A stretch of DNA of 64,000 nucleotides from Candidatus Parcubacteria bacterium (GCA_026395685.1 JAPLYG010000008.1:15225-79224); one strand, 5' to 3'. Shown: positions 2,608-49,956, numbered from the stretch's first letter. The notes: generated by a model not told the origin, from the letters alone. Translations and numbers: made by a program.

Positions 2608-2661
2608 AAAAGACGCAGAATGGAATCCACGCCTTTAGCAGAAACTATTAGGATGAATGCA

Positions 2662-3021: not shown

Positions 3022-3074
3022 TTTTGAATCCTCCTTAGGTTATTACCAGCCAAAGATCCGAAAACCTACAAATT

Positions 3075-15102: not shown

Positions 15103-15462
15103 ATGGCAACTTCAAAAGTAGCAGACAAACAACTCATTGATAAAACTCAAGTTAAACCGGGCATGGTTGTTCGTGTTTTCGTAAAAATTAAAGATGTAAA
15201 TGCCAAAGGCGAAGAAAAAGAAAGAATTCAGGCATATGAAGGCTTGGTCATTGCCAAGAAACACGGCAATGAACAAGGCGCAACAATTACTGTGCGCAAA
15301 ATCAGCGAGGGCATTGGTGTTGAAAGAATCTTCCCCATCCATTCACCCCTCATTGAAAAAATAGAGCTGGTTGACCAAAAAGTAATTCGCCGCGCAAAAC
15401 TTTATTACACGCGCACTTACAAAAAGAGACTTAAATCAATTTCTGAAAAAAAGCATAAATAA
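15103..15462 (+). CDS. rplS: 50S ribosomal protein L19
   Basis: IQAYEGLVIAKKHG..ATITVRKISEGIGVERIFPIHSPLIEKIELV is canonical L19. Confidence 0.9.
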   Translation: MATSKVADKQLIDKTQVKPGMVVRVFVKIKDVNAKGEEKERIQAYEGLVIAKKHGNEQGATITVRKISEGIGVERIFPIHSPLIEKIELVDQKVIRRAKLYYTRTYKKRLKSISEKKHK

Positions 15463-15541: not shown

Positions 15542-15730
15542 CTACCCGAAAACCGGGCAGGCCAGTTCCCTGCAGCTTTCACAGCAGTTCGGACCCTTGG
15601 GCGCACAATGGCGTTCAAAATACCCGGGCTGTCGCAAACTTTCCAGTTCGCGCTCAATCGCCCCTGGATCAAAATCTTCCACGTCACCGTTAGTGCATAA
15701 AATCAGATTATCATCTTTTGCTATGGGCAT
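15542..15730 (-). CDS. small Cys-rich hypothetical protein (62 aa), SD-led
   Basis: AAGGAGG 5 nt before ATG; 6 Cys; GC-elevated segment. Confidence 0.5.
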   Translation of the reverse strand: MPIAKDDNLILCTNGDVEDFDPGAIERELESLRQPGYFERHCAPKGPNCCESCRELACPVFG

Positions 15731-15977
15731 AATTTCCTCCTTTGTCTAAATGTTTTTCTGCGACCATGCGCCTAAGATCGTGATCCTTTGGTGTAAGCTT
15801 AGAATCGGGAATTATCCGCGGATTGTCGCATTGCGATTTATAATCAGGACCTTGAACCATGACTGTTTTGGGACCAATGACTTCAACCACTACTCCGCGG
15901 CGAGTCATGCTCGGATCTGCCACAAAAACCGCTTCCACAAAATCTCCCACTTTCACTACCGCTTTTTCGCTCAGCAT
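15711..15977 (-). CDS. small hypothetical protein (89 aa from second ATG), SD-led; overlaps downstream gene by 20 nt
   Basis: AAGGAGG then ATGCTGATG; start placed at the second ATG for SD spacing; ORF track's longer N-extension starts upstream of the SD (15984-15990) and is unlikely; VGDFVEAVFV...RRGVVVEV beta-barrel-like (KOW/Tudor-like) pattern is a guess. Confidence 0.45.
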   Translation of the reverse strand: MLSEKAVVKVGDFVEAVFVADPSMTRRGVVVEVIGPKTVMVQGPDYKSQCDNPRIIPDSKLTPKDHDLRRMVAEKHLDKGGNYAHSKR

Positions 15978-21779: not shown

Positions 21780-21998
21780 ATGCCAAATGAACATGGTCAG
21801 GTTACCGTAGGCGACTTCAAAGCCCCTCCGGGTCAGTATCGAATCACTCGCGAAGACATGGAAGATGGCGCCCTGTACATCATCGCTGACATTTTCAACT
21901 ATGAGTGCGCGATTATAATTACCAACTGGCTGCGAGAGGAAGACGAAAACTCTGTCTTTTTGCTCTGGGATGATAAGGGCCAGGAAATTATCTGCTAA
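21780..21998 (+). CDS. small hypothetical protein (72 aa), SD-led, GC-elevated
   Basis: AAAGGAG ~11 nt upstream of ATG; sits between porA and porD on opposite strand. Confidence 0.4.
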   Translation: MPNEHGQVTVGDFKAPPGQYRITREDMEDGALYIIADIFNYECAIIITNWLREEDENSVFLLWDDKGQEIIC

Positions 21999-26282: not shown

Positions 26283-28001
26283 ATGGTATTTAAAAAACCA
26301 CACATTCCCCATCGCGAGGGAAATTATTCAAAAGAACCCAAATTACGCATCATGGTTTTGGGCGGGCTGGAAGAAGTCGGCCGCAACATGACTGTTTTAG
26401 AATTTGGCAATGACATTATTATTGTTGACATGGGCCTGATGTTTCCCGAAGAAGACATGCCGGGCATTGATTATATTATTCCCAATATCTCCTACTTTAA
26501 AGGTAAGGAAAAAAATATTCGCGGCGTAATTATTACTCATAGCCACATGGATCATATCGGCGGCATTCCTCACATAATGCCCAAAATCGGCAATCCCATT
26601 ATTTATACCGCCAAATTATCAGCCGGTATTATTCAAAAAAGGCAGGAGGAATATAAGTCAGCTCCAAAACTCAAATTTTACATCATTGATGAAAACACCC
26701 ATTTGAAACTGGGAAATTTCAATGTAGAATTTTTCCGAGTTAATCATAATGTGCCTGACAGCTTTGGCGTTGTGATCAAAACTCCGATCGGAACTATTGT
26801 GCATACCGGAGATTTTAAAATTGATCATTCCCCTATTAATGACAAGCCTGCTGACCTGGGCCGCATTGCTCAAATCGGCTCCCAGGGAGTCTTGGCTTTA
26901 ATGGCTGATTCCACTGATGCCGAACATGAAGGCTATCAGATTTCTGAAGCCAGAGTCGGCGAAGAATTGGAAGGTATTTTTGAAAAAGCGACCAACCGCA
27001 TTATTATCGGCACGTTTGCTTCACTCTTAAATCGCGTTCAGCAAGTTATTACTATCGCTGAAAAATTCGGACGCAAAGTTATGATTGAAGGCCGCAGCAT
27101 GACAACCAATGTAGAAATTGCCCATCAGCTCGGCTATATGAAAATCAAGCCAGGCACTTTATTGGAAGCAGAACATTATAATGAAAAAAAATATCCTGAT
27201 GATAAAATTGTGATTATCGGCTCCGGCGCTCAAGGTGAACAAAATGCCTTTTTAGTACGCTTTGCAGAAGATGAACATCGTTTTTTGCATATTAAAGAGG
27301 GCGATACTGTTATTTTTAGTTCCTCGGTTATTCCCGGCAATGAACGCACGATTCAAAATTTAAAGGATACTTTTTATCGCAAAGGCGCCAGAGTTATCCA
27401 TTACAAACTTATGGATGTTCATGCCGGCGGACACGCCAAAAAAGAAGATTTAAAACTATTGATCCGTTTAATCAAGCCTAAATATTATTTTCCGATCGAA
27501 GCCAACCATTATATGCTGCGCTTAAATGGCGAAATTGCGGAAAGTTTGGGAATACCCAAGGATCATATTTTTATTGCTGAAAATGGACAAGTAGTAGAAT
27601 TTACCCACAATGCCGGACACTTAACCCCGGAAAAAGTCCCGACCGATTATGTAATGGTGGACGGACTGGGAGTCGGCGATGTATCAGATATTGTTTTGCG
27701 TGATCGTCGGGTCATGGCTGCTGACGGCATGATTGTAATTATTGCCACCATTGATCGTAAAACCGGAAATATAATCGGCAATCCTGATATTATTTCCCGC
27801 GGTTTTGTTTATATGAAAGAAAATAAAGAATTGATTGAAACGACCAGAATGAAAGCCAAAAAAATATGCGGAGACACCGATCCTAAATCACCGGCTTTCG
27901 ATGATTATATTAAAAATAAAATCCGCGATGATATTGGCCAGTATCTCTATATTAAAACCAAACGACGACCCATGATTTTACCCGTAGTAATTAAAGTCTA
28001 A
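26283..28001 (+). CDS. rnj: ribonuclease J (metallo-beta-lactamase/beta-CASP)
   Basis: ITHSHMDHIGGIP, beta-CASP motifs, 572 aa. Confidence 0.9.
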   Translation: MVFKKPHIPHREGNYSKEPKLRIMVLGGLEEVGRNMTVLEFGNDIIIVDMGLMFPEEDMPGIDYIIPNISYFKGKEKNIRGVIITHSHMDHIGGIPHIMPKIGNPIIYTAKLSAGIIQKRQEEYKSAPKLKFYIIDENTHLKLGNFNVEFFRVNHNVPDSFGVVIKTPIGTIVHTGDFKIDHSPINDKPADLGRIAQIGSQGVLALMADSTDAEHEGYQISEARVGEELEGIFEKATNRIIIGTFASLLNRVQQVITIAEKFGRKVMIEGRSMTTNVEIAHQLGYMKIKPGTLLEAEHYNEKKYPDDKIVIIGSGAQGEQNAFLVRFAEDEHRFLHIKEGDTVIFSSSVIPGNERTIQNLKDTFYRKGARVIHYKLMDVHAGGHAKKEDLKLLIRLIKPKYYFPIEANHYMLRLNGEIAESLGIPKDHIFIAENGQVVEFTHNAGHLTPEKVPTDYVMVDGLGVGDVSDIVLRDRRVMAADGMIVIIATIDRKTGNIIGNPDIISRGFVYMKENKELIETTRMKAKKICGDTDPKSPAFDDYIKNKIRDDIGQYLYIKTKRRPMILPVVIKV

Positions 28002-28149
28002 GACATAAATATTCCTAAAAAATTCCCCCTAATATGGGGAATTTTTTAATTATTAGTAGATTAGTATGGTATTAGTAAATTAGTAGCCTAACTAAACCGA
28101 AGCAATGCCCTAAAACCCTTTATTCTTAGCCAAAACCAGCCACTCAGCA

Positions 28150-28178
28150 TTGACAAAATCAAGTATTTATGCTAATAT
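28150..28178 (+). promoter_or_regulatory. promoter P1 TTGACA-N17-(TG)CTAATAT for GC-rich block gene A
   Basis: Perfect -35, 17-nt spacer, extended -10; same architecture at 30652 and 33386. Confidence 0.55.
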
Positions 28179-28359
28179 TCCCTATTAAAGTAATTATTTA
28201 AGCTATTGAAATAAGGTAATAATTGTTATCTTATTTTAGTAGCTTATTGCTGCTGAATTTGCGAAGGGAGAAACAATACCCTTTTCACATAGATAAAGTG
28301 TTTTTCAGACAAAGAACTTTGACAACTTTACGCATAACAACCAAAAAGGAAGGTGAAAG

Positions 28360-29838
28360 ATGGATAGGAAAAACCTGACGGAAGTGATTCCGGGAGTATT
28401 GTATGACACCACCGTAGGGGATGATTCTCCGCTGCTTTTCAAGACCCAACCCGACGTCCTGTACGACGATGAGGGCCTGGAAATCAGCATCATCGTTGGC
28501 GACTTTGAACTCAAGTGTAAAAGCGAAGAGTTCAACAATAAAACACAGCTCAATTTCCACGAACCACAGGAGCTGCAAGCCAACCTGACGACGATCCTTA
28601 CATCGATCGTTTTCAGTAACAACGCCGAAGACAGCGACCCAACGTGGAAGTACGTGAGTAAAGGAATGGTCGGGGAAATCAAAGGAACTGCCGCGTCCAC
28701 GGCCAAAGAAACCGAGGATGCCGCGCCCATTCCCATGCCCCCCCTGATTGCGGAGGAAAAACCCGAGGCCATTCCCGCTCCACCCGCCGACGAGGAAAAA
28801 AAACCTGAGCCGGCAAAAGACCCGGAACCGCCAAAGCCCTGGGACGAGGAAGAAGAATTTGAGGACTTTCCCGATTTCCCCGTTGACGAGGGGAAAAAAC
28901 CCGAGCCTGAAAAAGCTCCGGAATTCCCAAGGCCCGGGGAAGAAGAAGATCCTTTCCGTTTTGATGTACGAGAACCCGAGCCTGAAAGAGCGCCAATACC
29001 GCCGCGACCCAGGGAAGACTGGGATCGCCCCGCGGATGAAACAGACGATGACATTTTAAGCCATCGCCGCCCACTTCCCCGACGGGAAGAACCGCCTGAA
29101 GAGGAGGCACCGATGAAACGAGGGATTCTCACTTACATTTTGGCGGCAATCGGGATCATCCTGATTTCCGCAATGCTGATTCTTCTGGGTCTCTTTCTCG
29201 GAACCTGGTGGGGTCAAGCCGACATTGACCGCCTGAAGGCCGACAACGGGAAACTCCAGCAGGAGATGAAGGGACTGAAAGCCCTGAATCCGCAAATCAA
29301 AAAGCTGCAGGAGGACATAGTCATTCTTCAGCAGGATAACCGGCTCTACAAGCTGAAAGCGGACCGCTACAGCCAGATTCTCACGAAACTGCTGTGGCCT
29401 ATTCCCGATGACTCGGAGCTGCAAAACTTCGATGTCAACAATAATTTCTGCGCTAACTGGTGCCAGTGGTTGAAGGAGAGCCTTCCCCTGGTTCGCCAGG
29501 ACGCGAAGGCCAACTGTCCGGCATGTTCCAAGCCGGTTGTGCAATCTAGCCGCAACACGAACGTAAAAAAGGCAGTTGCGGCTTGCCCGACTTGCCCGCC
29601 GGCCACTTGCACGAATTGTGTGGAAAGGGATAAAATCTATCCGACGACTCCGCAACAAGTACAGACCCCACCGGAACAAGTGCAGTCCCCGCCGCCACCG
29701 CAGCCTCAACCGGCTACGGAAAACGGTCCGAGGACAAAAGTTTACCCCGGAACTCCGGCGCCCGGTCCTGTCCAACAGGCAAACGCTCCGGCTCCGGAAT
29801 CCAACACCACCGTCAGAACACAAACTATCGACCCCTGA
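28360..29838 (+). CDS. GC-rich bitopic membrane protein: cytoplasmic N-domain with Pro/Glu-rich PEP repeats, TM, coiled coil, Cys-rich region, Pro-rich tail ending TQTIDP
   Basis: 492 aa; TM GILTYILAAIGIILISAMLILLGLF; codon GC3 much higher than neighbours; antisense ORFs are artefacts of high GC. Confidence 0.7.
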   Translation: MDRKNLTEVIPGVLYDTTVGDDSPLLFKTQPDVLYDDEGLEISIIVGDFELKCKSEEFNNKTQLNFHEPQELQANLTTILTSIVFSNNAEDSDPTWKYVSKGMVGEIKGTAASTAKETEDAAPIPMPPLIAEEKPEAIPAPPADEEKKPEPAKDPEPPKPWDEEEEFEDFPDFPVDEGKKPEPEKAPEFPRPGEEEDPFRFDVREPEPERAPIPPRPREDWDRPADETDDDILSHRRPLPRREEPPEEEAPMKRGILTYILAAIGIILISAMLILLGLFLGTWWGQADIDRLKADNGKLQQEMKGLKALNPQIKKLQEDIVILQQDNRLYKLKADRYSQILTKLLWPIPDDSELQNFDVNNNFCANWCQWLKESLPLVRQDAKANCPACSKPVVQSSRNTNVKKAVAACPTCPPATCTNCVERDKIYPTTPQQVQTPPEQVQSPPPPQPQPATENGPRTKVYPGTPAPGPVQQANAPAPESNTTVRTQTIDP

Positions 29839-29876
29839 TCCCTTTAAGGGACAACTTCTTTCACAAGGAGAAAGAA

Positions 29877-30590
29877 ATGAAGAAATTTTTCTACGGCATC
29901 GTAATTCTGATGATCATCGGCTTCGTGTTCCCGGCTCTGGCTGACAGCAATGTCCCGAGCAGGGAATCCAACACGCCGATGGCCTTCCCCACGAAACCGA
30001 CCGTCACCTGGGGAGCGAACAACTACCTGAACGTGGCTCTCCCCGAAAACCCGAGCGTTCCCCTGGTGTTCGGCTACAACGGGAATGGATTTCCCGGCGG
30101 CACCAACTGGCAGATCACGGAAAAGCAAAACTCGCCGAGCGAGCCCCTGCTTTTCACCGTGGAAGTCCAGCTTCCGGGCAGCGCCTACACCGGCCTGACC
30201 CCGAGCATGCTGATCAACACCAGCAAAGCGAACGAGGGCGAAAGATCCGGAATCAACCCCTGGTCTTCCGCCGCCGGCCTGCCTGACAAAGCGCAGTGCC
30301 GGGTCAAAGACGGTCGCTTCCAGTGTCGCTCCGGCTGGGCTGGACAATGGGAAGACGTCAAGATGCCCAATGCCAATTCCGAGGACATCGTCATCTACGA
30401 GCGCGACGTCCCCGACCCCGAGCATCCCAGCCGGGTCGGTGGCAAACTCTGGGTGATCTACAACACCAAGACTGGTGAGACCATCGTGATTTATCCCAAC
30501 ATCACGGGCCTCTACCGTACCATCCGATACGGATTTGCCGCAACCGGCGGAACCATTCTGCTGTGCTTCGTGGCTTTCTTTGTCATTTGA
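29877..30590 (+). CDS. GC-rich secreted protein with MKKFF signal peptide and C-terminal hydrophobic anchor (GG-TILLCFVAFFVI)
   Basis: SD AAGGAG 6 nt upstream; signal peptide MKKFFYGIVILMIIGFVFPALA; 39-nt gap from gene A suggests co-transcription. Confidence 0.65.
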   Translation: MKKFFYGIVILMIIGFVFPALADSNVPSRESNTPMAFPTKPTVTWGANNYLNVALPENPSVPLVFGYNGNGFPGGTNWQITEKQNSPSEPLLFTVEVQLPGSAYTGLTPSMLINTSKANEGERSGINPWSSAAGLPDKAQCRVKDGRFQCRSGWAGQWEDVKMPNANSEDIVIYERDVPDPEHPSRVGGKLWVIYNTKTGETIVIYPNITGLYRTIRYGFAATGGTILLCFVAFFVI

Positions 30591-30604
30591 ACACAAATGA
30601 ATAC

Positions 30605-30641
30605 AAGCCGAGTATGCCTTTAAGGCAGCTCGGCTTTTTTA
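30605..30641 (+). terminator. rho-independent terminator after gene B
   Basis: AAGCCGAG...CTCGGCTT + T6. Confidence 0.65.
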
Positions 30642-30651
30642 TTTCAATTTA

Positions 30652-30680
30652 TTGACAAAAGTTATAGAATCTGCTAATAT
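30652..30680 (+). promoter_or_regulatory. promoter P2 TTGACA-N17-(TG)CTAATAT
   Basis: Same architecture as P1/P4. Confidence 0.55.
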
Positions 30681-30768
30681 CTTATATTAAACTATAAATT
30701 ATAGTTACTACGTACATTTATAAAATTTTAACCCTAAACACTTCCCTACGGGGAGCAAAGGAGTCAAG

Positions 30769-31467
30769 ATGAAGAAATTCTTTGTGATCATGTTTTTGCT
30801 GGTAGTAGGCTTTACGGTCTTGGCTCAGGCCGAGCCGGCACAGCCTCCGCCTGCGAGCAACCAGCCGGGCGTACTGCCCAATGTTAATGTCATTGTCCCT
30901 CCCTACTTATGGATTGATAACTTTGTAACCGGGGAAAATGGCATTCTGGAACACCATGTTGCCAACCTGAGACTTATTCAGGAATGGCTGCGTGATAATC
31001 CCTCCGACATTGCTGCTTTGATCGGCATGGTCTCTGACCTGAAAATCAGAGGCTATTGCTACTACAATTATTCAACAGGCTTTTATAGTCTGAAGTACAA
31101 TCAAGCCGGCAGTACTGTCAATCAGGGAGATCGAGTCTGCCAGGAAGCCCTGTCGCTCAGCCGGGCAATTTCCATCCGCAACTGGTTGCTTACGCCGCAA
31201 AACTGGCTAAAAGACAAACAGGGCAATCCCATTAAAATTGATGAGTTCCGTATCAGAATCCTGGATGTGAAAGCTCTGGGATTACGCGGGGGCGGCAACT
31301 TTCCCAACCAGTCAGTCGCTGTCTGGATGCTGTCTTTTAATCAGGCAAAGCAAGGTCCTGGCATTCTGACGCTGACGCAGGGCCCTCCTGCGCCCGTGCC
31401 AACGCCCGAGATAGCTCCTCGCAGGCGACCCAAGACAACGATCTATACTCAGAAAATTGACCCTTGA
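30769..31467 (+). CDS. GC-rich secreted protein with MKKFF signal peptide, Pro-rich tail ending YTQKIDP
   Basis: SD AAAGGAG; signal peptide MKKFFVIMFLLVVGFTVLAQA; C-terminus shares TQxIDP with gene A. Confidence 0.7.
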   Translation: MKKFFVIMFLLVVGFTVLAQAEPAQPPPASNQPGVLPNVNVIVPPYLWIDNFVTGENGILEHHVANLRLIQEWLRDNPSDIAALIGMVSDLKIRGYCYYNYSTGFYSLKYNQAGSTVNQGDRVCQEALSLSRAISIRNWLLTPQNWLKDKQGNPIKIDEFRIRILDVKALGLRGGGNFPNQSVAVWMLSFNQAKQGPGILTLTQGPPAPVPTPEIAPRRRPKTTIYTQKIDP

Positions 31468-31477
31468 TTTAAAATCA

Positions 31478-31510
31478 ACCGGGCAGTGAGTTTTCACTCG
31501 CCCGGTTTTT
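31478..31510 (+). terminator. rho-independent terminator after gene C
   Basis: CCGGGCAGTGAG..TCACTCGCCCGG + T5. Confidence 0.6.
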
Positions 31511-31836
31511 CTTTTCTAAATATTTGCTAAAATATTATTCGCACGGTATATTGCAACTATATGATAGGTAAGTATGCTTTTTACATTCTAATTTTGGCTA
31601 ACTTAGGATAATCCCTTAAAATATTGACTTTTTATAAAGCAAATGATAAACTCCCATATCAAGTAAGAATAAGCTTTTTAAAAGAATTCATTTGTCTAAA
31701 TTGATTCTTTCAAGCAGCTTAAAAGCTGTTGAGAATAATAGGTTGAGTTTTTTCCATAAACCAAAAGTGTTTTGTTATTTCACAAAAATTCTCCCTCACG
31801 GGAGACTAGATTTCCCTGAAGGGAAAGGAGGATCAA

Positions 31837-33183
31837 GTGATGATCAGAAATAAGATGACCTTGCTCTTGCTTTGGATCAGTTTTTTTGCCATTGGCGCCT
31901 CCGGGCAGTTCAACTGCATTGACGGTGATGTGCACGAAGGTGATAAAAACTACTATGGCGATCGTGATCCTGACGGCGACGGTTATAATAACCGAGTTGA
32001 TTGCAGTGATCAGGATCCCAATCGTTGGGTATTCATCATTGCATATCCTGACCATGATGGTGACGCTATGCCTGAACAAGGCCCGACCATTAATATCTGC
32101 TCCGGCACTACAACTCATGCCCCTGCGGGCTGGACTTTCAATGACTCACCAATGGATCCCTGCCCCAATGATCCCGAGAACATCTGCGGGGTAACAGTTC
32201 CATTTTGCCAGCTCGCTGGCGTTGCCAATGGCCATACGACTACCCTAACTGCCACAGCTACTTACACCAATGGCTCCTTTGACCGAGTGATTTTCTACGC
32301 AGGAAATATGGTGGTCAAAACTGATACCACTCCAGCTGACGGCTGGACTGCTATCCTAACCAATGTCCCCAACGGTGTTTACACCTACCATGCCATTGCC
32401 TTTGCCACTGACGGCAATTCTGCCTTGTCTAACTTTGTTACCATTACCATCAATGACACTGGCGCTTGTATGCCGACACTGACCATCACATGGGCTTATG
32501 CCATTGCTCCTGAGAAAACCTACTATGGTGGCTGGTTTGGTTCTTGCTTTACCAGCATTTTCGGACAAGATCCCTGGTGGCAGTTTGGACCGTTTAGCAG
32601 CTGCCATGAATGCAGCCAATCCGGCGTAGTTTTTCCCGGTAGTTTGAATTTGGGCTTTTGCGAATTCAGTGGCACTGTGCCCAGAAGCCTGAACGAAAAT
32701 CCAACAGCGCCCTTTACCACCGATCGCGGTGATATTGTGGACTATTTCATTACCGGCTATCCTGACGGACACATTTATAATGGCTTGGCTCCTGGATCGC
32801 CGGCAGCTTACTTCGACAACTGTGCCAGTATTATTCAGCTCTCAGTAGCTCAGATAAATCATCCGTGGGGTGCCAACTATTTCATTGCCTTTACTGCCCC
32901 GCTGGCAGGTAATACGGCTAATATCTTCGTTACCTCGCCGATTGACTCTGATAGTGACGGCTGGATGAATGCTTGTCCTCCCAACACAACTTGTCAGGCG
33001 GATAACTGTATCCGTTTTGAAAATCAGACCCAGCTGGATTCAAACAGCGATGGAGTCGGTGATGCCTGTACTGCCAATCCTGACCCGAATTTTTGGGATC
33101 AAGATAATGACTGGTACTTGGACGGACCCAATGTTGCGGAATCTGATCGGGATCATTACCCGACTGATAGAACCCGGCATTAA
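31837..33183 (+). CDS. secreted Ca-binding protein with thrombospondin type-3-like Asp-rich repeats and Ig-like domain (paralog D, moderate GC3)
   Basis: Signal peptide; DPDGDGYNNRVDCSDQD, DSDSDGWMNACP, DSNSDGVGDAC motifs; SD AAGGAGG; ends PTDRTRH. Confidence 0.8.
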   Translation: MMIRNKMTLLLLWISFFAIGASGQFNCIDGDVHEGDKNYYGDRDPDGDGYNNRVDCSDQDPNRWVFIIAYPDHDGDAMPEQGPTINICSGTTTHAPAGWTFNDSPMDPCPNDPENICGVTVPFCQLAGVANGHTTTLTATATYTNGSFDRVIFYAGNMVVKTDTTPADGWTAILTNVPNGVYTYHAIAFATDGNSALSNFVTITINDTGACMPTLTITWAYAIAPEKTYYGGWFGSCFTSIFGQDPWWQFGPFSSCHECSQSGVVFPGSLNLGFCEFSGTVPRSLNENPTAPFTTDRGDIVDYFITGYPDGHIYNGLAPGSPAAYFDNCASIIQLSVAQINHPWGANYFIAFTAPLAGNTANIFVTSPIDSDSDGWMNACPPNTTCQADNCIRFENQTQLDSNSDGVGDACTANPDPNFWDQDNDWYLDGPNVAESDRDHYPTDRTRH

Positions 33184-33196
33184 ATTTTAACTATTA

Positions 33197-33237
33197 CGGG
33201 CTGCGACTTAGACACATCTAAGCCAGCCCGTTTTTTT
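33197..33237 (+). terminator. rho-independent terminator after paralog D
   Basis: CGGGCTG-CGACTTAGACACATCTAAG-CCAGCCCG + T7; near-identical copy after paralog E. Confidence 0.7.
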
Positions 33238-33385
33238 ATTGAAAAAAGATCTCCAAAAATTACATTTCTTACCCTTTTATCCCTGTCTGCGAAATTACCC
33301 ATAAATACGCCTAAAACCACATTTTTAAAATTGCTTATTTTAGCTAATTTTACCCTAATTCTAGCCAAAATAAAACATCAACCTC

Positions 33386-33414
33386 TTGACATTTGCAAAA
33401 AAATATGCTAATAT
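33386..33414 (+). promoter_or_regulatory. promoter P4 TTGACA-N17-(TG)CTAATAT for paralog E
   Basis: Same architecture as P1/P2. Confidence 0.55.
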
Positions 33415-33660
33415 ACCCTATTAAACTAATCTTAGATAAAAGCCGAATTTAAGCTATTAAAAAGAGTTATATAATAATTAATTCTTTTTAGCAGCTTAAT
33501 AAGCTGTTTTGGATATTTAGAGAAATAAAAGCATGGACTTTAACTCCTGCTTATTGACATAGATGGTTAAGCATTTTTGGATAAAGGAATTTGTTTTTTG
33601 ACAACACCCTACTCTCCCCCAAAGGAGACGATTTTCCCCGCGGGGGAAAAGGAGAATACC

Positions 33661-35001
33661 ATGAACGCGAAAAGACTTATTACGGTTCTTCTGGTTCTCG
33701 GCTGTTTGACTTCGACCATGGGTGCGACCTGCATCGACGGCGACCTCAACGAGGGCGACAAAACCGTCATCAACAAAAACGACCACGACAACATCGACAC
33801 TGACGGCGACGGCGTGCTCGACATCAACGACTGCGCCCCGCTCGACCCGAGCAAGTGGGCCGAGAAAGATGCCCGCCCCGACACTGACGGCGATAACCTG
33901 CCCGAAAATGGACCGGCAATGCAGGTCTGCAGTGGGAACACCACCCCTGCGCCTATTGGCTGGACCTGGGTGGCTTCGCCGCTCGATCCCTGCCCCAATG
34001 ACCCGCAGAACATCTGCGGTACGGTCAATCCGACCTGCCAGATCACAGCGGTGGCCAGCGGCCACACTGTGTCCCTCACGGCGACTGTCGCTTACACGAG
34101 CGGCACTATCGCCCGAGTGGAATTCTATAAGGGTATCACGCTGATCGGGACGGACAACACAGCCAGCAATGGCTGGAATCTGACCTGGACCAACGTGCCG
34201 AATGGGACCTACACGCTTCAGGCCATTGCGTTTGCCTCTGACGGCAAGACCGCAACCTCTAACGAGGTCACGGTTACCGTCAATGTCGGCGCTCCGACAT
34301 GCGTGCCCACGCTGGCAATTAGCTGGGGCTATAACATTCCCCAGAACACGACCTACTACAACTCGTGGTATGGATCCTGTTTCACCACCTTCGACGGCCA
34401 GGACCCCTGGTGGCAGTATGCGCCCTATGGCTACTGCCGCGAGTGCGCTCAGGCTGACGAAGTGTTTGCCGGAAGCTTCAACGAGGGTTTCTGTGATTTC
34501 AACAACACGGTTCCCAAAGTGCTTAACGGCAACCCGCTCGCTCCGTTCACCACGGATCGTGGCGACATCGTTGACTATGCCCTTGTCGGTTACACTGACG
34601 GGCATATGTACAACGGTCTGGCCCGCATGCCGACTGCGACCTTCAACAACTGCATTACTACGGTCAGTCTGCCTGTGGTCCCCGTGAACCAGGCCTGGGG
34701 TGCGAACTTCAGGGTGTATTTTACGGATGCGGTCGATCCGATTGATGGGGACACCATCAACGTGATCGTCAGCACGCCGATCGATTCCGACAACGACGGT
34801 TTCCCGAATGCCTGCCAGCCCGGCACCACGTGTCAGGCCGACAACTGCATTCGCTTCGAGAATCCCGAGCAGACCGACACCGACCATAACGGCGTCGGCG
34901 ATGCCTGCACGAACCATGCCAATCCGGACGAGAACGATCCGGACAATGACTGGTTCATGAATTTCGAAGACGCATTTCCGTATGATCGGACGCGTCATTA
35001 G
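33661..35001 (+). CDS. secreted Ca-binding TSP3-like repeat / Ig-like protein (paralog E, very high GC3); start at MNAKRL
   Basis: Internal ATG with SD GGAGA 5 nt upstream and a signal peptide right after; ORF-track extension to 33577 reads through the leader; long minus-strand ORF 33517..35034 is a GC artefact; ends PYDRTRH. Confidence 0.8.
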   Translation: MNAKRLITVLLVLGCLTSTMGATCIDGDLNEGDKTVINKNDHDNIDTDGDGVLDINDCAPLDPSKWAEKDARPDTDGDNLPENGPAMQVCSGNTTPAPIGWTWVASPLDPCPNDPQNICGTVNPTCQITAVASGHTVSLTATVAYTSGTIARVEFYKGITLIGTDNTASNGWNLTWTNVPNGTYTLQAIAFASDGKTATSNEVTVTVNVGAPTCVPTLAISWGYNIPQNTTYYNSWYGSCFTTFDGQDPWWQYAPYGYCRECAQADEVFAGSFNEGFCDFNNTVPKVLNGNPLAPFTTDRGDIVDYALVGYTDGHMYNGLARMPTATFNNCITTVSLPVVPVNQAWGANFRVYFTDAVDPIDGDTINVIVSTPIDSDNDGFPNACQPGTTCQADNCIRFENPEQTDTDHNGVGDACTNHANPDENDPDNDWFMNFEDAFPYDRTRH

Positions 35002-35014
35002 AACTTGACTACAA

Positions 35015-35056
35015 ACGGGTTGCGACTTAGACAAATCTAAGCCAGCCCGTTTTTTA
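35015..35056 (+). terminator. rho-independent terminator after paralog E
   Basis: Same CGACTTAGACA(A/C)ATCTAAGCCAGCCCG hairpin as after D. Confidence 0.7.
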
Positions 35057-35311
35057 TTTATACGAATATTATTTTATATACAACGAATGGCAGATTAATC
35101 ATCTTAATTAACCTTGCGCAGAGTATCCTTATAAAATGTAATAGGTGAAGCTTTATTATGCGAATATTATTTTTATACTGCGAATAACTGATTTTGAAAT
35201 ACTCTTCCAATTACCAATGCCTAATGCCCAATACCAAATTACAGTCTATTTACAGCCAGAGTATAATTAAGTAGAATTAATATATTGTATATACTGGTAA
35301 CCAATCAAACC

Positions 35312-35340
35312 TTGACAAAACGCTAAAATTATAGTAAAAT
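35312..35340 (+). promoter_or_regulatory. putative promoter TTGACA-N17-TAAAAT for rnpB
   Basis: Located ~35 nt upstream of the predicted RNase P RNA 5' end. Confidence 0.45.
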
Positions 35341-35371
35341 ATCCATATAACTGAACACTATTGTTCAGTAG

Positions 35372-35968
35372 CTAAATATCCAAACAAGCAGATGATCACC
35401 CCTCCGAAGCTTTAGCAAAGGAGGGGAGGAAAGTCCGGACTTTATGCCCTGCTCCGCACCGGAGATTCTAAATCCAAAAATCCTAAATCTTAAACATTTT
35501 TTAATTTTGTTATTTGAACATTTGAATTTGTTTGAAATTTGGTGCTTGAGATTTGGTGCTTCCGTTGCGGAGCAACGGTAAGGGTAACGGGTAACGCCCG
35601 CCCGTTTAATAGCAATATTAAATGAGGACCAGTGCCACAGAGACAATTCTAGCGAGTCCCGCTTTGCGGGGCGGGGTTGACTCGGCGGCTTATAAGCCGC
35701 CTCGCCAAAGGTGAAAAGTATCTCGATGTTTTTTGTTCTCGAGACAAAAGGCTACGAGAATCGGCCTCTGGCAACAGAGTGTCCGCGGTAAACTCTACCT
35801 AAAGCAAGGACAAACCCACCCCAGCGCAAGCAACGGTGGTGACAAGTAGTCCGCTAGAGCTCGGCAGCAATGCCCAGCCCAGATAGATGATCATCCTTCG
35901 ACAACCTCAGGATAATCTCCTGATAAGTCGAGGACAAAATCCGGCTTATAGTTTGTTTGGATATTCAG
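35372..35968 (+). ncRNA. rnpB: RNase P RNA (bacterial type A) with large AT-rich insertion
   Basis: GGAGGGGAGGAAAGUCCGG (P4), GGGUAACGCCCGCCC, GACCAGUGCCACAGAGAC, AAGGUGAAA, ACAAAAUCCGGCUUAUAG match universally conserved RNase P RNA regions in order; P1 pairing AUAUCCAAACAA/UUGUUUGGAUAU. Confidence 0.85.
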
Positions 35969-35999
35969 CTATAATTTTAAATTTATAAAATATTCTATT

Positions 36000-37454
36000 A
36001 TGTCTAATATGTCCGCCAGAGGCGGAAAAAAGACAGCGCTGATTTTTACTATAATTTTATTGCCTCTTGATTTCCTGATGCTGATTTTTGCATCGTTAAC
36101 AGCCTACTCTTTACGTGTCGGCTCTTTTGTTACTGAAATTAGGCCGGTTATCTACACTTTGCAATTTTCCGAGTATCTATTTTACAGCATTCTGGTTTCT
36201 TTAATCTGGCTTTTTATCTTTGCCTTTGCCGGATTATATAAAATCGAAAGGCGCAAATTTAATGATGAATTTGTTAAAATTATCCTGGCTTGTTCCACCG
36301 GCATTTTGGCAATTATCGTGGCTATTTTTTTAAAAAGAGAATTATTTTCTTCCCGCTTTATTATCCTGGCTGCCTGGGGCTTGAGTATTTTATATGTAAC
36401 TCTGGGCCGTTTAATTATTTCTCAAATTCAAAAATCACTTTTGAAAAAAGGAATTGGCGCAAGAAAAATCGTAATCATAGGCAATGACAAAAACACCAAG
36501 ATTATTGGCGAAGAGATTAAAAATCACGCTAAATTAGGCTACCAAATAATTAAAACTTTTCCCAGCTATAATGAAACTATTAAAACTGAGTTGTTGAAAC
36601 TGATTAGCCAGGGACAATTAGATGAGATTGTCCAGGCTGATCCAAACTTGGACCGCCAGGCTACTTCTGATCTAATTGATTTTACTGAAGCCCACCACAT
36701 TACTTTCAAATTTACTGCCGATATTTATCGCACCAAAACTTCGCGCCTGGAAATCGACACTCTGGCAGGCTTGCCCATTTTTGAAATTGCAAAAACCAAG
36801 CTTGAAGGCTGGGGCCGAATTTATAAGCGAATTTTTGATATTATAACCGCCCTTATTTTGATTATTATATTTTCACCTATATTAATTATTACCGCTATTG
36901 CCGTAAAATTAAATTCCCGCGGACCAATTATTTATAAAAATATCCGCGTCGGCCAGGACGGCAAGGAATTCAATCTTTTCAAATTCAGATCAATGTATTA
37001 TGAGTTTAGTACTGGTGTCGGTAATCCGGAACAGCAACAAAAAGCCTTGGCTATGGAAAAAGAACTGATTGCCAAACAAAATGTACGCGAAGGCGCCTTA
37101 TATAAAATTAAAAATGATCCCAGAATAACAAAAGTCGGAAAATTTACCAGAAAATGGAGCATTGATGAGCTGCCGCAATTTTTTAATGTTTTATTTGGAC
37201 AAATTAGCTTAGTCGGGCCGAGGCCTCATCAACCCCGCGAAGTTGCCAAATATACGCAATCTCAATTACGAACTCTAGACATCAAGCCCGGGGTAACTGG
37301 TCTGGCGCAAATTTCAGGACGATCTGATTTGGATTTTGACGAAGAAGCTAAGCTGGATATTTACTATATAGAAAACTGGTCGCTTTGGCTCGACATAATT
37401 ATTTTGCTCAGAACTCCAAAAGTCGTGCTTTCCCCAAAGCGCGAAGCGCTTTAA
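36000..37454 (+). CDS. polyprenyl-phosphate sugar phosphotransferase (WbaP/exopolysaccharide initiating enzyme family)
   Basis: Multi-TM N-terminus; C-terminal bacterial sugar transferase domain (KFRSM, DELPQFFNVLFGQISLVGPRP). Confidence 0.85.
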   Translation: MSNMSARGGKKTALIFTIILLPLDFLMLIFASLTAYSLRVGSFVTEIRPVIYTLQFSEYLFYSILVSLIWLFIFAFAGLYKIERRKFNDEFVKIILACSTGILAIIVAIFLKRELFSSRFIILAAWGLSILYVTLGRLIISQIQKSLLKKGIGARKIVIIGNDKNTKIIGEEIKNHAKLGYQIIKTFPSYNETIKTELLKLISQGQLDEIVQADPNLDRQATSDLIDFTEAHHITFKFTADIYRTKTSRLEIDTLAGLPIFEIAKTKLEGWGRIYKRIFDIITALILIIIFSPILIITAIAVKLNSRGPIIYKNIRVGQDGKEFNLFKFRSMYYEFSTGVGNPEQQQKALAMEKELIAKQNVREGALYKIKNDPRITKVGKFTRKWSIDELPQFFNVLFGQISLVGPRPHQPREVAKYTQSQLRTLDIKPGVTGLAQISGRSDLDFDEEAKLDIYYIENWSLWLDIIILLRTPKVVLSPKREAL

Positions 37455-49464: not shown

Positions 49465-49956
49465 ATGAAAACCAGGAAAAAAAGGTCGATGAAAGCAAAG
49501 ACAATTATCTTAGTCGGTATCTATGTTCATCCGGTCAAAGGACTTTTAATGATCCAGTCTCCCAGCGGTAACTTACTATTGCCCGGAGGGAAAATCAATC
49601 ATTCGATGCGTCCCCGCATGAGCCAGATCCAGAAAAGACGTGAAAATTTGAAGCTCCAGCAGACTACTTTTGAAAAAAGCGGGTTTATGCTTGATCCTGC
49701 TCCGCCTATAGTTCTTTATCCTATCAAGGGCATGCTTTATAAATGTTTCAGATTAATACAGAGTACTACCTTAAATTTGTGCTGGGCAATAAATCCCAAT
49801 TATAAAGCTATTTATCTGCAGCCTGATTTGGAGATGATTAATAATATGCCTGAAATTCCTGATGAAGATAAAAAAATTATCAATGATTTTTTGGGAAAAG
49901 GATCTGTCAAAAGCGCTGATTACGCCCAATCTGTCTGCAATATTGTTTCCTTATAA
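49465..49956 (+). CDS. hypothetical protein, SD-led
   Basis: GGAGG 7 nt upstream of ATG; upstream part of ORF-track ORF lacks start signals. Confidence 0.45.
   Translation: MKTRKKRSMKAKTIILVGIYVHPVKGLLMIQSPSGNLLLPGGKINHSMRPRMSQIQKRRENLKLQQTTFEKSGFMLDPAPPIVLYPIKGMLYKCFRLIQSTTLNLCWAINPNYKAIYLQPDLEMINNMPEIPDEDKKIINDFLGKGSVKSADYAQSVCNIVSL

What the first reader, a model, noticed from the sequence alone, without database searches (positions are those of the whole stretch)
31625..35056. Duplicated 1.75-kb unit (promoter-leader-hairpins-CDS-terminator) whose two coding copies have very different GC3
Paralogs D and E share promoter architecture, leader motifs, SD-proximal hairpins, domain order and a near-identical terminator (CGACTTAGACA(A/C)ATCTAAGCCAGCCCG). 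E uses almost exclusively G/C-ending codons, whereas D is mixed. A duplication that includes the non-coding flanks but leaves such divergent synonymous composition is unusual. It could reflect differential amelioration, gene conversion from an external GC-rich homolog, or two separate acquisitions into a pre-existing cassette.
Basis: seen in the sequence. Interest (0 to 1): 0.62.

Follow-up and report, generated by a model that had tools for sequence, protein, structure and literature searches.

The report
GC-rich surface-protein paralogs, one relaxed
Two old tandem copies of a secreted calcium-binding surface-protein gene sit in a conserved, GC-rich gene island of an otherwise AT-rich Parcubacteria genome, and one copy (D) has drifted most of the way back towards the genome's AT-rich codon usage while the other (E) has kept the GC-rich state.

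Summary
D (31840-33183) and E (33661-35001) are full-length paralogs with 52-54% amino-acid identity. GC3 is 0.49 in D and 0.74 in E, uniformly along the gene. Both sit in a promoter-leader-SD-CDS-terminator unit with homologous flanks.

D and E belong to a five-gene, 7-kb island (28.1-35.06 kb) whose coding sequences alone are GC-rich. Background GC3 is 0.36 and intergenic GC is 0.31-0.33.

The same island lies between RNase J and an exopolysaccharide gene cluster in at least four other related AT-rich contigs. Island genes there also have GC3 of 0.58-0.84. The leader hairpins and the terminator sequence are conserved across the whole family.

Synonymous sites are saturated between D and E, so the duplication is old. 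The flanks are similar because they are constrained, not because they are young. The tree is (D,(E,F)) and every outgroup is GC3-rich, so D is the derived, decayed copy.

High GC3 has outlasted saturation, so it is actively maintained, most likely by selection on coding-sequence base composition tied to a special expression regime. That cause is inferred, not shown. Recent transfer, external gene conversion and separate acquisitions are not supported.

The parts
28150..30590 (+). First island transcription unit. It comprises promoter TTGACA-N14-TGCTAATAT (28150-28178), a leader carrying the conserved long hairpin (28197-28262), gene A (28360-29838, GC3 0.60) and gene B (29877-30590, GC3 0.77). 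Both have an SD.
30652..31501 (+). Gene C unit. It comprises promoter 30652-30680, a short leader with one SD-proximal hairpin, the CDS 30769-31467 (GC3 0.57) and its own terminator (~31478-31510).
31624..31652 (+). Promoter of D, TTGACT-N14-TGATAAACT. It departs from the island consensus ATGCTAATAT.
31668..31735 (+). Conserved 5'-leader long hairpin of D, followed by the short AGCAGC/GCUGUU hairpin.
   Evidence: (55 bits)
31790..31831 (+). SD-proximal hairpins of D: UCUCCC-UCAC-GGGAGA (31790-31805) and UUUCCC-UGAA-GGGAAA (31811-31826). The SD AAAGGAGG lies at 31824-31831.
31840..33183 (+). CDS D, 447 aa. It has a signal peptide, TSP3-like Ca-binding repeats, a Big_7 Ig domain, a 165-aa Cys-rich central domain, C-terminal TSP3 repeats and a ...DRTRH end. 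GC3 is 0.49, an excess of +0.10 over the host expectation.
33196..33236 (+). Terminator hairpin of D plus its T-run, -21.2 kcal/mol. The sequence is conserved family-wide.
33386..33414 (+). Promoter of E, TTGACA-N14-TGCTAATAT, which matches the island consensus. TTAGCYAAA-type motifs lie upstream at ~33336-33371 (identified by eye).
33448..33513 (+). Conserved 5'-leader long hairpin of E plus the AGCAGC/GCUGUU hairpin. A further GCAUG...CCUGC hairpin (~33545-33567) is missing in D.
   Evidence: (73.8 bits)
33613..33654 (+). SD-proximal hairpins of E: UCUCC-CCCAAA-GGAGA (33613-33628) and UUUUCCCC-GCG-GGGGAAAA (33632-33650). The SD AAAGGAG lies at 33648-33654.
33661..35001 (+). CDS E, 446 aa. 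It has the same architecture as D plus a lipobox-like VLGC. GC3 is 0.74, an excess of +0.35. The 505-aa antisense ORF 33517-35034 is a codon-aligned by-product, because E has no TTA, CTA or TCA codons.
35015..35055 (+). Terminator hairpin of E plus its T-run, -20.2 kcal/mol, 39/41 identical to D's.

Best explanation
**What D and E are.** They are old in-situ tandem paralogs. The duplication predates the split from the genome of contig L001. They belong to a lineage-specific family of secreted, Cys-rich, Ca-binding (thrombospondin-type-3-like) Ig-domain surface proteins or lipoproteins.

**Where they sit.** They lie in a vertically inherited, fast-evolving envelope-protein island between RNase J and an exopolysaccharide gene cluster. 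Every transcription unit of this island has the same build:
- a near-invariant promoter (TTGACA-N13-ATGCTAATAT);
- a structured 5' leader of about 180-270 nt, with a covarying long hairpin, a short GC hairpin and two hairpins abutting the ribosome-binding site;
- a strong Shine-Dalgarno sequence, which the housekeeping genes lack;
- a coding sequence enriched in G+C at all three codon positions;
- for most family genes, a sequence-conserved terminator hairpin.

**Shown.** The GC-rich state is ancestral for the family. It is confined to coding sequence. It is kept at GC3 of about 0.6-0.8 in genomes whose background GC3 is 0.36-0.49, across divergences at which synonymous sites are saturated. 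It is therefore an actively maintained set-point and not a decaying foreign signature.

**Inferred.** It is maintained by selection on coding-sequence base composition rather than on particular tRNA-matched codons. That selection is tied to a high-output or long-lived-mRNA expression regime for these envelope proteins. After the duplication, D came under weaker selection of this kind. D has a non-consensus -10 element, a shortened leader and a somewhat faster protein clock. It decayed by GC-to-AT changes most of the way to the genome's mutational equilibrium, and it is still intact.
For: **Paralogy and age**
- Full-length homology.
- Synonymous sites are saturated. Among identical amino acids, D and E share the same codon at 0.384 of sites, against 0.380 +/- 0.028 expected at random. 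For E and F the figures are 0.478 against 0.439 +/- 0.026, and dS is 1.3-1.5 or more.
- The NJ tree is (D,(E,F)) with 97% and 96% bootstrap support. All outgroups have GC3 of 0.59-0.78, apart from the distant root P0128 at 0.51.

**The island**
- GC3 of A-E is 0.60, 0.77, 0.57, 0.49 and 0.74, against 0.36 for 30 background genes.
- After correcting for amino-acid content, the GC3 excess is +0.21, +0.37, +0.17, +0.10 and +0.35. Host genes have a standard deviation of 0.037 and a maximum of +0.066.
- Island intergenic GC is 0.31-0.33, the same as other intergenic regions of the window, and GC steps up at the start codon and down at the stop codon.

**Conservation elsewhere**
- Syntenic loci L001, L003/L004, L006 and L007 all show RNase J, then genes with no Pfam match, then family genes, then (in L001, L006 and L007; the L003/L004 contigs end inside the island) the Bac_transf and GT4 genes.
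- Their island genes have GC3 of 0.58-0.84, against 0.38-0.50 (0.58 for one gene) for flanking genes.
- B-like and C-like genes are only 27-31% identical across loci, whereas the flanking transferase is 74% identical.

**Neutral decay excluded**
- Even starting from GC3 = 1.0, neutral decay allows only 0.32-0.45 AT<->GC changes per site before falling to today's values.

**The bias is compositional**
- Nc is only 3-9 below the expectation from GC3 alone, the same offset as host genes.
- GC1 and GC2 are also raised.

**Expression regime**
- SD of 6-8 nt at 5/5 island genes here and 15/16 elsewhere. None of 30 plus about 19 housekeeping genes has one, and a scan that does not depend on start-codon calls agrees.
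- Three of the four perfect matches to the extended promoter pattern in the window are island promoters.
- The leader hairpin has 19 pairs, 95% paired, 7 covarying pairs, and 0 of 500 shuffles reach its score. It occurs only in island leaders.
- The terminator is conserved family-wide.
- The three family members with a non-consensus -10 (D, L7_437, P0128) have the three lowest GC3 values, 0.49, 0.59 and 0.51, against 0.62-0.78 for the other eight.

**D faster but intact**
- Tajima counts for D versus E are 53:36, 49:30 and 46:24 with three outgroups, p = 0.07-0.009.
- All conserved cysteines are retained.

**Literature**
- Selection for genic G+C independent of codon usage has been shown experimentally in C. 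crescentus (PMC4478552).
- Transcription-linked selection favours C and U at synonymous sites (PMC4844684). E's fourfold sites read C 0.44, G 0.33, T 0.18, A 0.05.
- Secreted Ig-like proteins are among the most highly expressed genes of Paceibacteria (PMC10936435).
Against: - No expression data exist for this organism, so high expression is inferred only from signals.
- The one ribosomal-protein gene in the window (15103-15462) has GC3 of 0.34. Other central genes sit at 0.34-0.42. The genome therefore shows no general expression-linked GC3 trend.
- By the E. coli consensus, the -10 elements of D (TAAACT) and E (TAATAT) both match 4 of 6 positions. 'Weaker promoter' therefore means only a departure from the family consensus.
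- The promoter-GC3 association rests on 3 versus 8 related sequences.
- Other SD-led short ORFs outside the island have GC3 of only 0.35-0.56, so an SD alone does not predict GC enrichment.
- Raised GC1 and GC2 fit a DNA-level GC pressure, such as biased gene conversion, as well as they fit selection at the RNA level.
- The relative-rate excess of D is not significant with three of the six outgroups.
Confidence: 0.5

Rival explanations
1. GC-biased gene conversion. The island is a recombination hot spot, with hypervariable surface proteins, tandem paralogs and conserved leader and terminator sequences that could serve as homology anchors. Repair of heteroduplex DNA favours G/C and drives up GC at all codon positions of the exchanged coding sequences. 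D recombines less and so decays.
For: - GC1, GC2 and GC3 are all raised.
- The bias is compositional rather than codon-specific.
- Island proteins evolve very fast: 27-31% identity against 74% for a flanking gene.
- The conserved flanks could confine exchange tracts to the coding sequence.
- The hypothesis exists for bacteria (Lassalle et al., bioRxiv 10.1101/011023 / PMC4450053, listed).
Against: - Spacers and leaders inside the island are not GC-enriched (0.31-0.33, equal to other intergenic regions).
- No conversion tract or stretch of high identity is visible inside the D or E coding sequences.
- From my own knowledge, not tested here: reported bacterial gBGC effects on GC3 are a few percentage points, not +20 to +35.
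- No recombination test was possible with single sequences per genome.
Confidence: 0.15
2. Horizontal acquisition from GC-rich, SD-using donors followed by differential neutral amelioration. In this view E is a recent import, or was converted from an external homolog, and D is an older import. Alternatively the two were acquired separately into a pre-existing promoter/terminator cassette.
For: - Atypical composition at all three codon positions, and SD use unlike the host's housekeeping genes.
- The gradient of GC3 among island genes could be read as different residence times.
Against: - No full-length homolog exists outside this lineage among 5.8 billion proteins. The exhaustive profile search of the central domain finds only 9 proteins, and all those with recoverable context lie in AT-rich, mostly syntenic, contigs.
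- D, E and F are monophyletic.
- The GC boundaries coincide with start and stop codons in four separate transcription units.
- The island is syntenic and GC-rich in at least five genomes although synonymous sites are saturated. Neutral decay cannot sustain that.
- No integrase, transposase, tRNA target or direct repeats lie at the island borders in the window.
Confidence: 0.07
3. The GC3 difference is a neutral by-product of different amino-acid composition or of low-complexity segments in the two proteins.
For: Amino-acid composition does account for much of the low A3 in D (observed 0.11, expected 0.17, host average 0.29).
Against: - With each protein's own amino-acid content and host codon usage, expected GC3 is 0.40 for D and 0.39 for E, against 0.49 and 0.74 observed.
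- The difference is uniform along the alignment.
- It is visible at fourfold sites: GC4 is 0.52 in D and 0.77 in E.
Confidence: 0.02

Closest known systems
Amelioration of horizontally acquired genes (Lawrence & Ochman model; recalled from memory)
   Same: A block of genes with atypical GC at all codon positions sits in a genome of different composition. One member (D) lies closer to the host composition.
   Different: - The atypical state is CDS-confined, vertically inherited, syntenic in at least five genomes and stable beyond synonymous saturation.
- There are no donor relatives and no mobility signatures.
- The decay of D is relaxation from a maintained set-point, not the ageing of an import.
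[quoted passage not shown]
   Same: GC enrichment at synonymous sites is not explained by tRNA-matched codon preference (Nc is close to the GC3-only expectation).
   Different: Here it applies to a small set of genes in an AT-rich genome rather than genome-wide, and it has not been tested experimentally.
5' mRNA stabilisers of Firmicutes, such as the cryIIIA STAB-SD and the aprE leader hairpin, which block RNase J 5'-3' decay (recalled from memory, not tested)
   Same: Long leaders with stable hairpins and SD-like purine tracts (GGGAGA, GGAGA) lie just upstream of the true SD, in an organism that encodes RNase J (gene 26283-28001).
   Different: - There is no sequence similarity and no Rfam match.
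- Processing sites and stability are unknown.
- The long covarying hairpin near the 5' end has no described counterpart.
Thrombospondin type-3 repeat / bacterial Ig-like surface proteins (COMP and TSP-2 T3 repeats; Myxococcus MtsC cell-cohesion protein)
   Same: The C-terminal region (profile positions 378-433 of the D/E/F alignment A3) matches COMP T3 repeats at E = 1e-12, and the Ig domain matches Big_7. There is a weak MtsC-like hit.
   Different: - Scores fall far below the family cut-offs for MtsC (22 bits against 350).
- The central 165-aa Cys-rich domain has no Pfam, PDB or NCBIfam match.
- The architecture is restricted to this lineage.
Highly expressed secreted Ig-like proteins of Paceibacteria parasitising methanogens (PMC10936435)
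   Same: Parcubacteria-class organisms in which signal-peptide proteins of unknown function with Ig-like folds are among the top transcripts.
   Different: Different proteins and genomes. That paper reports no analysis of composition or leaders.

Membership tests
Tandem gene duplication (paralogs) | Homology over the full length, same orientation, adjacent | tested here: met
   BLASTP 52% identity over 454 columns, E = 2e-166. The genes are adjacent on the + strand.
Tandem gene duplication (paralogs) | The copies are each other's closest relatives within the family, allowing for orthologs in sister genomes | tested here: met
   (D,(E,F)) with 97% and 96% bootstrap support.
Tandem gene duplication (paralogs) | Recent origin, shown by low synonymous divergence | tested here: not met
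   Same-codon fraction is 0.384 against 0.380 at random, and dS cannot be computed because sites are saturated.
Horizontally acquired island under amelioration | Atypical base composition relative to the host | tested here: met
   GC 0.49-0.58 against 0.39. The GC3 excess of +0.10 to +0.37 exceeds that of all 30 host genes.
Horizontally acquired island under amelioration | Closest relatives in distant taxa, or a patchy distribution | tested here: not met
   Relatives occur only in syntenic AT-rich Parcubacteria-like contigs. Scans of GTDB representatives and JGI contigs found none.
Horizontally acquired island under amelioration | Mobility signatures at the borders (integrase, tRNA target, direct repeats) | tested here: not met
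   None found in the ORF list, repeat search or tRNA scan. The borders are RNase J and RNase P RNA.
Horizontally acquired island under amelioration | Composition converges on the host within about one substitution per synonymous site | tested here: not met
   GC3 of 0.70-0.78 is retained in E, F, P0122, P0124 and P0126 despite saturation.
Translational-selection codon bias of highly expressed genes | Bias is codon-specific, so Nc lies well below the GC3-only expectation | tested here: not met
   Nc is 3-9 below expectation, like host genes.
Translational-selection codon bias of highly expressed genes | The same bias appears in ribosomal-protein and other housekeeping high-expression genes | tested here: inconclusive
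   Only one ribosomal-protein gene lies in the window, with GC3 of 0.34. Attempts to extend the contig failed.
Translational-selection codon bias of highly expressed genes | Bias correlates with measured expression | not testable with these tools
   There are no transcriptome or proteome data for this MAG.
GC-biased gene conversion tract | GC enrichment also in non-coding DNA within the tract | tested here: not met
   Island spacers have GC of 0.31-0.33, equal to other intergenic regions.
GC-biased gene conversion tract | Elevated recombination in the region | not testable with these tools
   This needs population samples.
Pfam Big_7 (PF17957) bacterial Ig domain | Score above the gathering threshold (24.1 bits) | tested here: met
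   E scores 37.5 bits. D scores 21.9 bits, just below the threshold, but aligns to E throughout. The AF2 model is confident only for this domain, residues 123-208.
Pfam TSP_3 (PF02412) thrombospondin type-3 repeat | Score above the gathering threshold (25 bits) | tested here: inconclusive
   E scores 21 bits, below the cut-off. A family profile matches COMP T3 repeats at E = 1e-12.
Any Rfam cis-regulatory leader | Match to a curated covariance model | tested here: not met
   No hit at E <= 1 in 27500-36500 other than RNase P RNA.
Intrinsic (Rho-independent) terminator | GC-rich hairpin followed by a U-run directly after the stop codon | tested here: met
   -21.2 and -20.2 kcal/mol, z-scores of -7.1 and -6.2, with T6-7 tails. 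The function itself was not assayed.

The most novel reading that the evidence does not exclude
A clade of Parcubacteria keeps a dedicated expression cassette for its fast-evolving envelope proteins. The cassette has a near-invariant promoter with an upstream TTAGCYAAA motif, an undescribed structured 5' leader RNA (a covarying 19-bp hairpin, a short hairpin with overlapping alternative pairing, and two hairpins abutting the SD), Shine-Dalgarno-led initiation in a genome whose housekeeping genes lack an SD, and a sequence-conserved 3' hairpin. In this reading the coding sequences are kept GC-recoded by selection so that these mRNAs escape the cell's AU-directed decay machinery, with RNase J encoded immediately upstream in every locus. 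Paralogs such as D would then show what happens when a copy drops out of this regime.
Probability: 0.15. Interest if true: 0.75.

Novelty: new variant of a known kind. Interest (0 to 1): 0.5.

Why it matters
- **A warning about composition-based calls of transfer.** An atypically GC-rich block in an AT-rich genome is usually read as recent horizontal transfer. Here the block is vertically inherited, CDS-confined and stable past synonymous saturation in several genomes.
- **A natural experiment.** Some force favours G+C in a specific gene set against AT-biased mutation in a tiny, probably host-dependent bacterium. The D/E pair, and independently the 437-aa versus 430/830-aa paralogs in L007, are a matched maintained/relaxed comparison for measuring that force.
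- **Two translation-initiation classes.** The genome has SD-led island and orphan genes beside SD-less housekeeping genes.
- **New RNA elements.** There is an undescribed conserved leader RNA and a conserved terminator. Together with the proteins they flank, these mark likely major surface proteins, and so possible host-contact proteins, of uncultivated Parcubacteria.

Tried and rejected
**Searches that found nothing**
- The search for related loci with the D/E/F alignment found no confirmed relative in GTDB species representatives or in JGI metagenome contigs.
- Exact-pattern scans for the terminator in both collections found nothing. L007 is a JGI contig that carries the motif, so that collection evidently does not hold every record.
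- Rfam gave no match for the leaders or terminators.
- PHROGs and NCBIfam gave nothing useful for A-E. The weak 'Rz-like spanin' hit of A covers only its coiled-coil/TM region and was disregarded.

**Structure prediction**
- AlphaFold2 on the 3-sequence alignment gave mean pLDDT of 37.6. Only the Ig domain was confident, so no fold search was run.

**Contig extension**
- I tried to extend the contig to reach ribosomal-protein genes by looking up the two edge proteins. My first-ATG translations are not on record, so this failed.

**Ideas considered and dropped**
- Translational selection on specific codons was dropped after the Nc analysis.
- A second proximal promoter at the conserved leader motif TTTGACAA was dropped because no -10 element lies at a workable spacing (inspection).
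- An integron attC-like role for the 3' inverted repeat was dropped. It has no R'/R'' core-site resemblance and each cassette has its own promoter (inspection only).
- The 505-aa antisense ORF over E was dropped as a gene. It is codon-aligned, and E has no TTA, CTA or TCA codons.
- The TTWGSYWAWWT upstream motif is not enriched window-wide (13 observed, 13.9 expected), so its significance rests only on its position in promoters.

Full report
**Observation**

The window is a contig of a 'Candidatus Parcubacteria bacterium' MAG (protein P0001 is E). It has 39% G+C.

D (31840-33183, 447 aa) and E (33661-35001, 446 aa) are adjacent on the + strand. They align end to end with 52% identity at E = 2e-166. 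A codon alignment gives 53.7% amino-acid and 58.3% nucleotide identity.

GC by codon position is 0.50/0.49/0.49 for D and 0.53/0.47/0.74 for E. The GC3 gap is present in every 60-codon window: D 0.38-0.55, E 0.65-0.82.

The flanks are homologous:
- The terminator is 39/41 identical, at -21.2 and -20.2 kcal/mol.
- The leaders are 78% identical over aligned columns, against 64 +/- 3% for shuffles, and differ by a roughly 60-nt indel.
- Sequence outside the promoter and terminator is no more similar than shuffled sequence.

The exception is that E is 74% G/C-ending, not 'almost exclusively' so.

**Context inside the window**

D and E are the last two of five consecutive + strand genes (A-E, 28360-35001). 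These form the only GC-rich block in 64 kb.
- Thirty background genes have GC3 of about 0.36.
- A-E have GC3 of 0.60, 0.77, 0.57, 0.49 and 0.74.
- I computed the GC3 expected from each protein's own amino acids under host codon usage. Host genes deviate with a standard deviation of 0.037 and a maximum of +0.066.
- A-E deviate by +0.21, +0.37, +0.17, +0.10 and +0.35.
- Even D is therefore outside the host range. GC1 and GC2 are also raised.

The enrichment is confined to coding sequence. The five island spacers have 0.31-0.33 G+C, like other intergenic regions, and GC steps up at the start codons and down at the stop codons.

The bias is compositional rather than codon-specific. Nc lies only 3-9 below the value expected from GC3 alone, as it does for host genes.

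**Related loci**

Only one other full-length relative appeared among 5.8 billion proteins: P0002, here called F, at 61% identity to E. An exhaustive profile search with the central 165-aa domain found 9 proteins among 1.84 billion representatives.

The contigs of these proteins could be fetched. They show the same neighbourhood:
- RNase J;
- then two to five genes without Pfam matches;
- then one to three family genes;
- then (where the contig reaches that far: L001, L006, L007) RNase P RNA (visible in L001) and a polyprenyl glycosylphosphotransferase with GT4 genes and DUF4012.

In the window the flanks are RNase J (26283-28001), RNase P RNA (35523-35964) and the transferase (36000-37454).

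B-like and C-like genes are recognisable in L003, L006 and L007 at 27-31% identity, whereas the flanking transferase is 74% identical between the window and L001. The island is therefore vertically inherited and evolves fast.

In every locus the island genes are GC3-rich (0.58-0.84), while flanking genes have GC3 of 0.38-0.50, with one at 0.58. The excess after amino-acid correction is +0.07 to +0.32.

The island set-point does not follow the host background. Host versus main family copy reads 0.36/0.74, 0.46/0.70, 0.47/0.70, 0.49/0.78 and 0.41/0.77.

L007 repeats the D/E pattern independently. It has three tandem paralogs with GC3 of 0.70, 0.59 and 0.77.

**Age and direction**

Synonymous sites are saturated:

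| Pair | Same codon at identical amino acids | Random expectation |
|---|---|---|
| D-E | 0.384 | 0.380 +/- 0.028 |
| E-F | 0.478 | 0.439 +/- 0.026 |

For E-F, dS is 1.3-1.5 or more.

A bootstrapped NJ tree gives (D,(E,F)) with 97% and 96% support. The duplication therefore predates the split of the two genomes. It happened within this lineage, which rules out two separate acquisitions.

All nearer outgroups have GC3 of 0.59-0.78, so the GC-rich state is ancestral and D is the derived copy.

A two-state decay model shows that a neutral sequence could accumulate at most 0.32-0.45 AT<->GC changes per third position before falling to today's values of E or F. That holds even from an impossible starting GC3 of 1.0. 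The observed turnover is at or above this for E-F and far above it for the wider family. The high GC3 is therefore maintained, not a remnant.

D needs about 0.7 such changes per site to go from 0.74 to 0.49, which fits its age. At fourfold sites D (GC4 0.52) is close to the host (0.47), and E stands at 0.77.

D also shows a moderate excess of unique amino-acid changes: 53:36, 49:30 and 46:24 against E with three outgroups. The excess is not significant with three other outgroups. D keeps all conserved cysteines.

**The flanks are conserved modules, not young DNA**

*Promoter.* TTGACA-N13-ATGCTAATAT precedes 11 of the 16 island transcription units examined in these loci.

*Long leader hairpin.* The leaders share a long hairpin (UAAGCU..GAAAUGAGUCAA-loop-UUGAUUCAUUUC..AGCUUA).
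- In 14 instances it has 19 pairs and 95% of cells are paired.
- Seven pairs show compensatory changes.
- Its covariation score is 0.319, against 0.170 for shuffles (0 of 500 reach it) and at most 0.076 for slid registers.
- A covariance model finds it only in island leaders: three copies in the window (before A, D and E), plus one new copy before P0128.

*Short hairpin.* A following 6-bp hairpin (AGNAGC/GCNNCU) has one pair that covaries as C-G, U-A and A-U. It overlaps the 3' arm of the outer helix, so alternative pairing is possible.

*SD-proximal hairpins.* Two hairpins directly upstream of the SD are present in nearly all members. Their sequences differ but stay complementary.

*Terminator.* The sequence ACGGGYUG-NNN-CUUAGAcAAAUCUAAG-CCAGCCCG-U6 recurs after family genes whose proteins are only 35-60% identical.

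*Rfam.* It has no match for any of these elements.

Purifying selection on regulatory RNA and DNA therefore explains why the flanks look 'younger' than the coding sequence.

**A separate initiation class**

All five island genes have a 6-8-nt Shine-Dalgarno sequence, as do 15 of 16 island genes in the other loci. None of 30 long background genes here, or about 19 in the other loci, has one.

A scan that does not depend on start-codon calls confirms this. It also finds seven further SD-led short ORFs outside the island, with GC3 of 0.35-0.56. SD use therefore marks a class of leadered, lineage-specific genes. It does not by itself predict the GC enrichment.

**What the proteins are**

By inspection, the family has an N-terminal signal peptide, and a lipobox in E and most other members. 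Its domains are:
- DxDxDG-type repeats;
- a Big_7 Ig domain (E 37.5 bits, D 21.9 bits);
- a 165-aa Cys-rich domain with no known relatives;
- C-terminal thrombospondin type-3-like Ca-binding repeats (COMP, E = 1e-12);
- a conserved ...(F/Y)PxDR(T)RH end.

The structure model was confident only for the Ig domain.

The location next to envelope-polysaccharide genes, the DsbA gene a few kilobases upstream, the rapid evolution and the tandem paralogy all suggest surface or adhesion proteins. This is an inference. Secreted Ig-like proteins are among the most highly expressed genes in related Paceibacteria (PMC10936435).

**Mechanism**

*Shown.* There is a coding-sequence-confined, composition-level GC enrichment that is ancestral, syntenic and stable beyond saturation. 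One paralog has largely lost it.

*Inferred.* The enrichment is kept by selection on genic base composition linked to the special expression regime of these genes.
- Precedents are the experimental evidence for selection on genic G+C independent of codon usage (PMC4478552) and for transcription-linked preference for C and U at synonymous sites (PMC4844684).
- E's fourfold sites read C 0.44, G 0.33, T 0.18 and A 0.05.
- The three family members whose -10 element departs from the family consensus (D TAAACT, L7_437 TAAGTT, P0128 TAACCT) have the three lowest GC3 values, 0.49, 0.59 and 0.51, against 0.62-0.78 for the other eight. D and L7_437 are not orthologs, so this happened at least twice.

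*Caveats.*
- There are no expression data.
- The sample is small and the sequences are related.
- By the E. coli consensus, D's -10 is no worse than E's.
- The single ribosomal-protein gene in the window is not GC3-enriched.

**Rivals**

*Biased gene conversion.* It would also raise all three codon positions, and it suits a hypervariable locus with conserved anchors. Against it, spacers and leaders are not enriched, no tracts are visible, and the effect is very large.

*Recent transfer or external conversion.* This is contradicted by distribution, synteny, monophyly, boundaries at start and stop codons, and persistence.

*Amino-acid artefact.* This is excluded.

**Verdict**

The finding is real and is explained in outline. 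D and E are old paralogs inside a conserved, GC-recoded envelope-protein island with constrained regulatory flanks. E keeps the family's maintained GC-rich state and D has relaxed towards the genome's equilibrium.

The specific D/E contrast is a moderate curiosity. The island-wide regime is the more interesting and, as far as I could find, undescribed feature. That regime combines maintained GC enrichment, SD-led initiation in an otherwise SD-less gene set, and a new covarying leader RNA with a conserved terminator.

Noticed in passing
window 35523-35964 (+): Bacterial RNase P RNA class A scores 99.7 bits, just under Rfam's gathering score of 100. It is therefore missed at the default threshold. 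A consensus promoter lies at 35312-35340. The same RNA follows the family gene in L001.
   Followed up: partly
window-wide; loci L001, L003, L006, L007: None of about 50 housekeeping genes has a Shine-Dalgarno sequence, whereas all island genes do. So do seven short orphan ORFs: 2662-3021(-), 15711-15977(-), 15542-15730(-), 21780-21998(+), 49465-49956(+), 54734-55120(+) and 56504-56953(+). The genome appears to have two translation-initiation classes.
   Followed up: partly
window 33517-35034 (-): A 505-aa antisense ORF spans all of E. It is codon-aligned with E, and E contains no TTA, CTA or TCA codons. The open frame is therefore a by-product of A3 avoidance and not a gene.
   Followed up: yes
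window 29102-29115, inside gene A (28360-29838): An in-frame AGGAGG-N5-ATG lies directly before the only transmembrane helix of A (MKRGILTYILAAIG...). A may therefore yield a second, 241-aa membrane-anchored product, or may be two fused genes.
   Followed up: no
window 2620-3027 (+) vs 2662-3021 (-): The + strand ORF with GC3 of 0.60 is probably the shadow of a - strand gene of 119 aa. That gene has a perfect consensus promoter (3103-3075) and the SD AAGGAGG.
   Followed up: partly
window 28125-28145, 31591-31601, 33336-33371; promoters in L002, L003, L006, L007: A TTAGCYAAA-type motif lies 12-25 nt upstream of the -35 element in about 12 of 16 island promoters. In the first-operon promoters of four genomes it reads CTTAGCCAAAWCCAGCCAC. 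It may be a shared regulator site. It is not enriched window-wide.
   Followed up: partly
window 35062-35075, 35160-35173, 31529-31542(-); L001, L002: A (G/A)CGAATATTATTTT motif recurs just downstream of family terminators in several genomes. In the window there are 8 matches against 2.9 expected, which is borderline.
   Followed up: no
L007 ~5900-6000, ~7700-7800, ~9560-9650, ~12560-12600: A repeat of roughly 90 nt (GGATTATTCTCACGGATTYCACGGATATC...CCGTGTTTCAKAGGCTTCAATTTTTT) precedes each of the three tandem family paralogs and follows the last one.
   Followed up: no
C-termini of D, E and all family members; of A and C: Family proteins end in ...(F/Y)PxDR(T/I/N/S)R(H/F), with the last residue at the stop codon. 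A and C both end in TQ(T/K)IDP. These may be C-terminal sorting or processing signals.
   Followed up: no
leaders, e.g. window 33490-33508 and 31713-31731: The short hairpin AGCAGC/GCUGYU overlaps the 3' arm (AGCUUA) of the outer helix of the long leader hairpin by four bases. The two cannot form together, which is a possible switch. One pair of the short hairpin covaries as C-G, U-A and A-U.
   Followed up: partly
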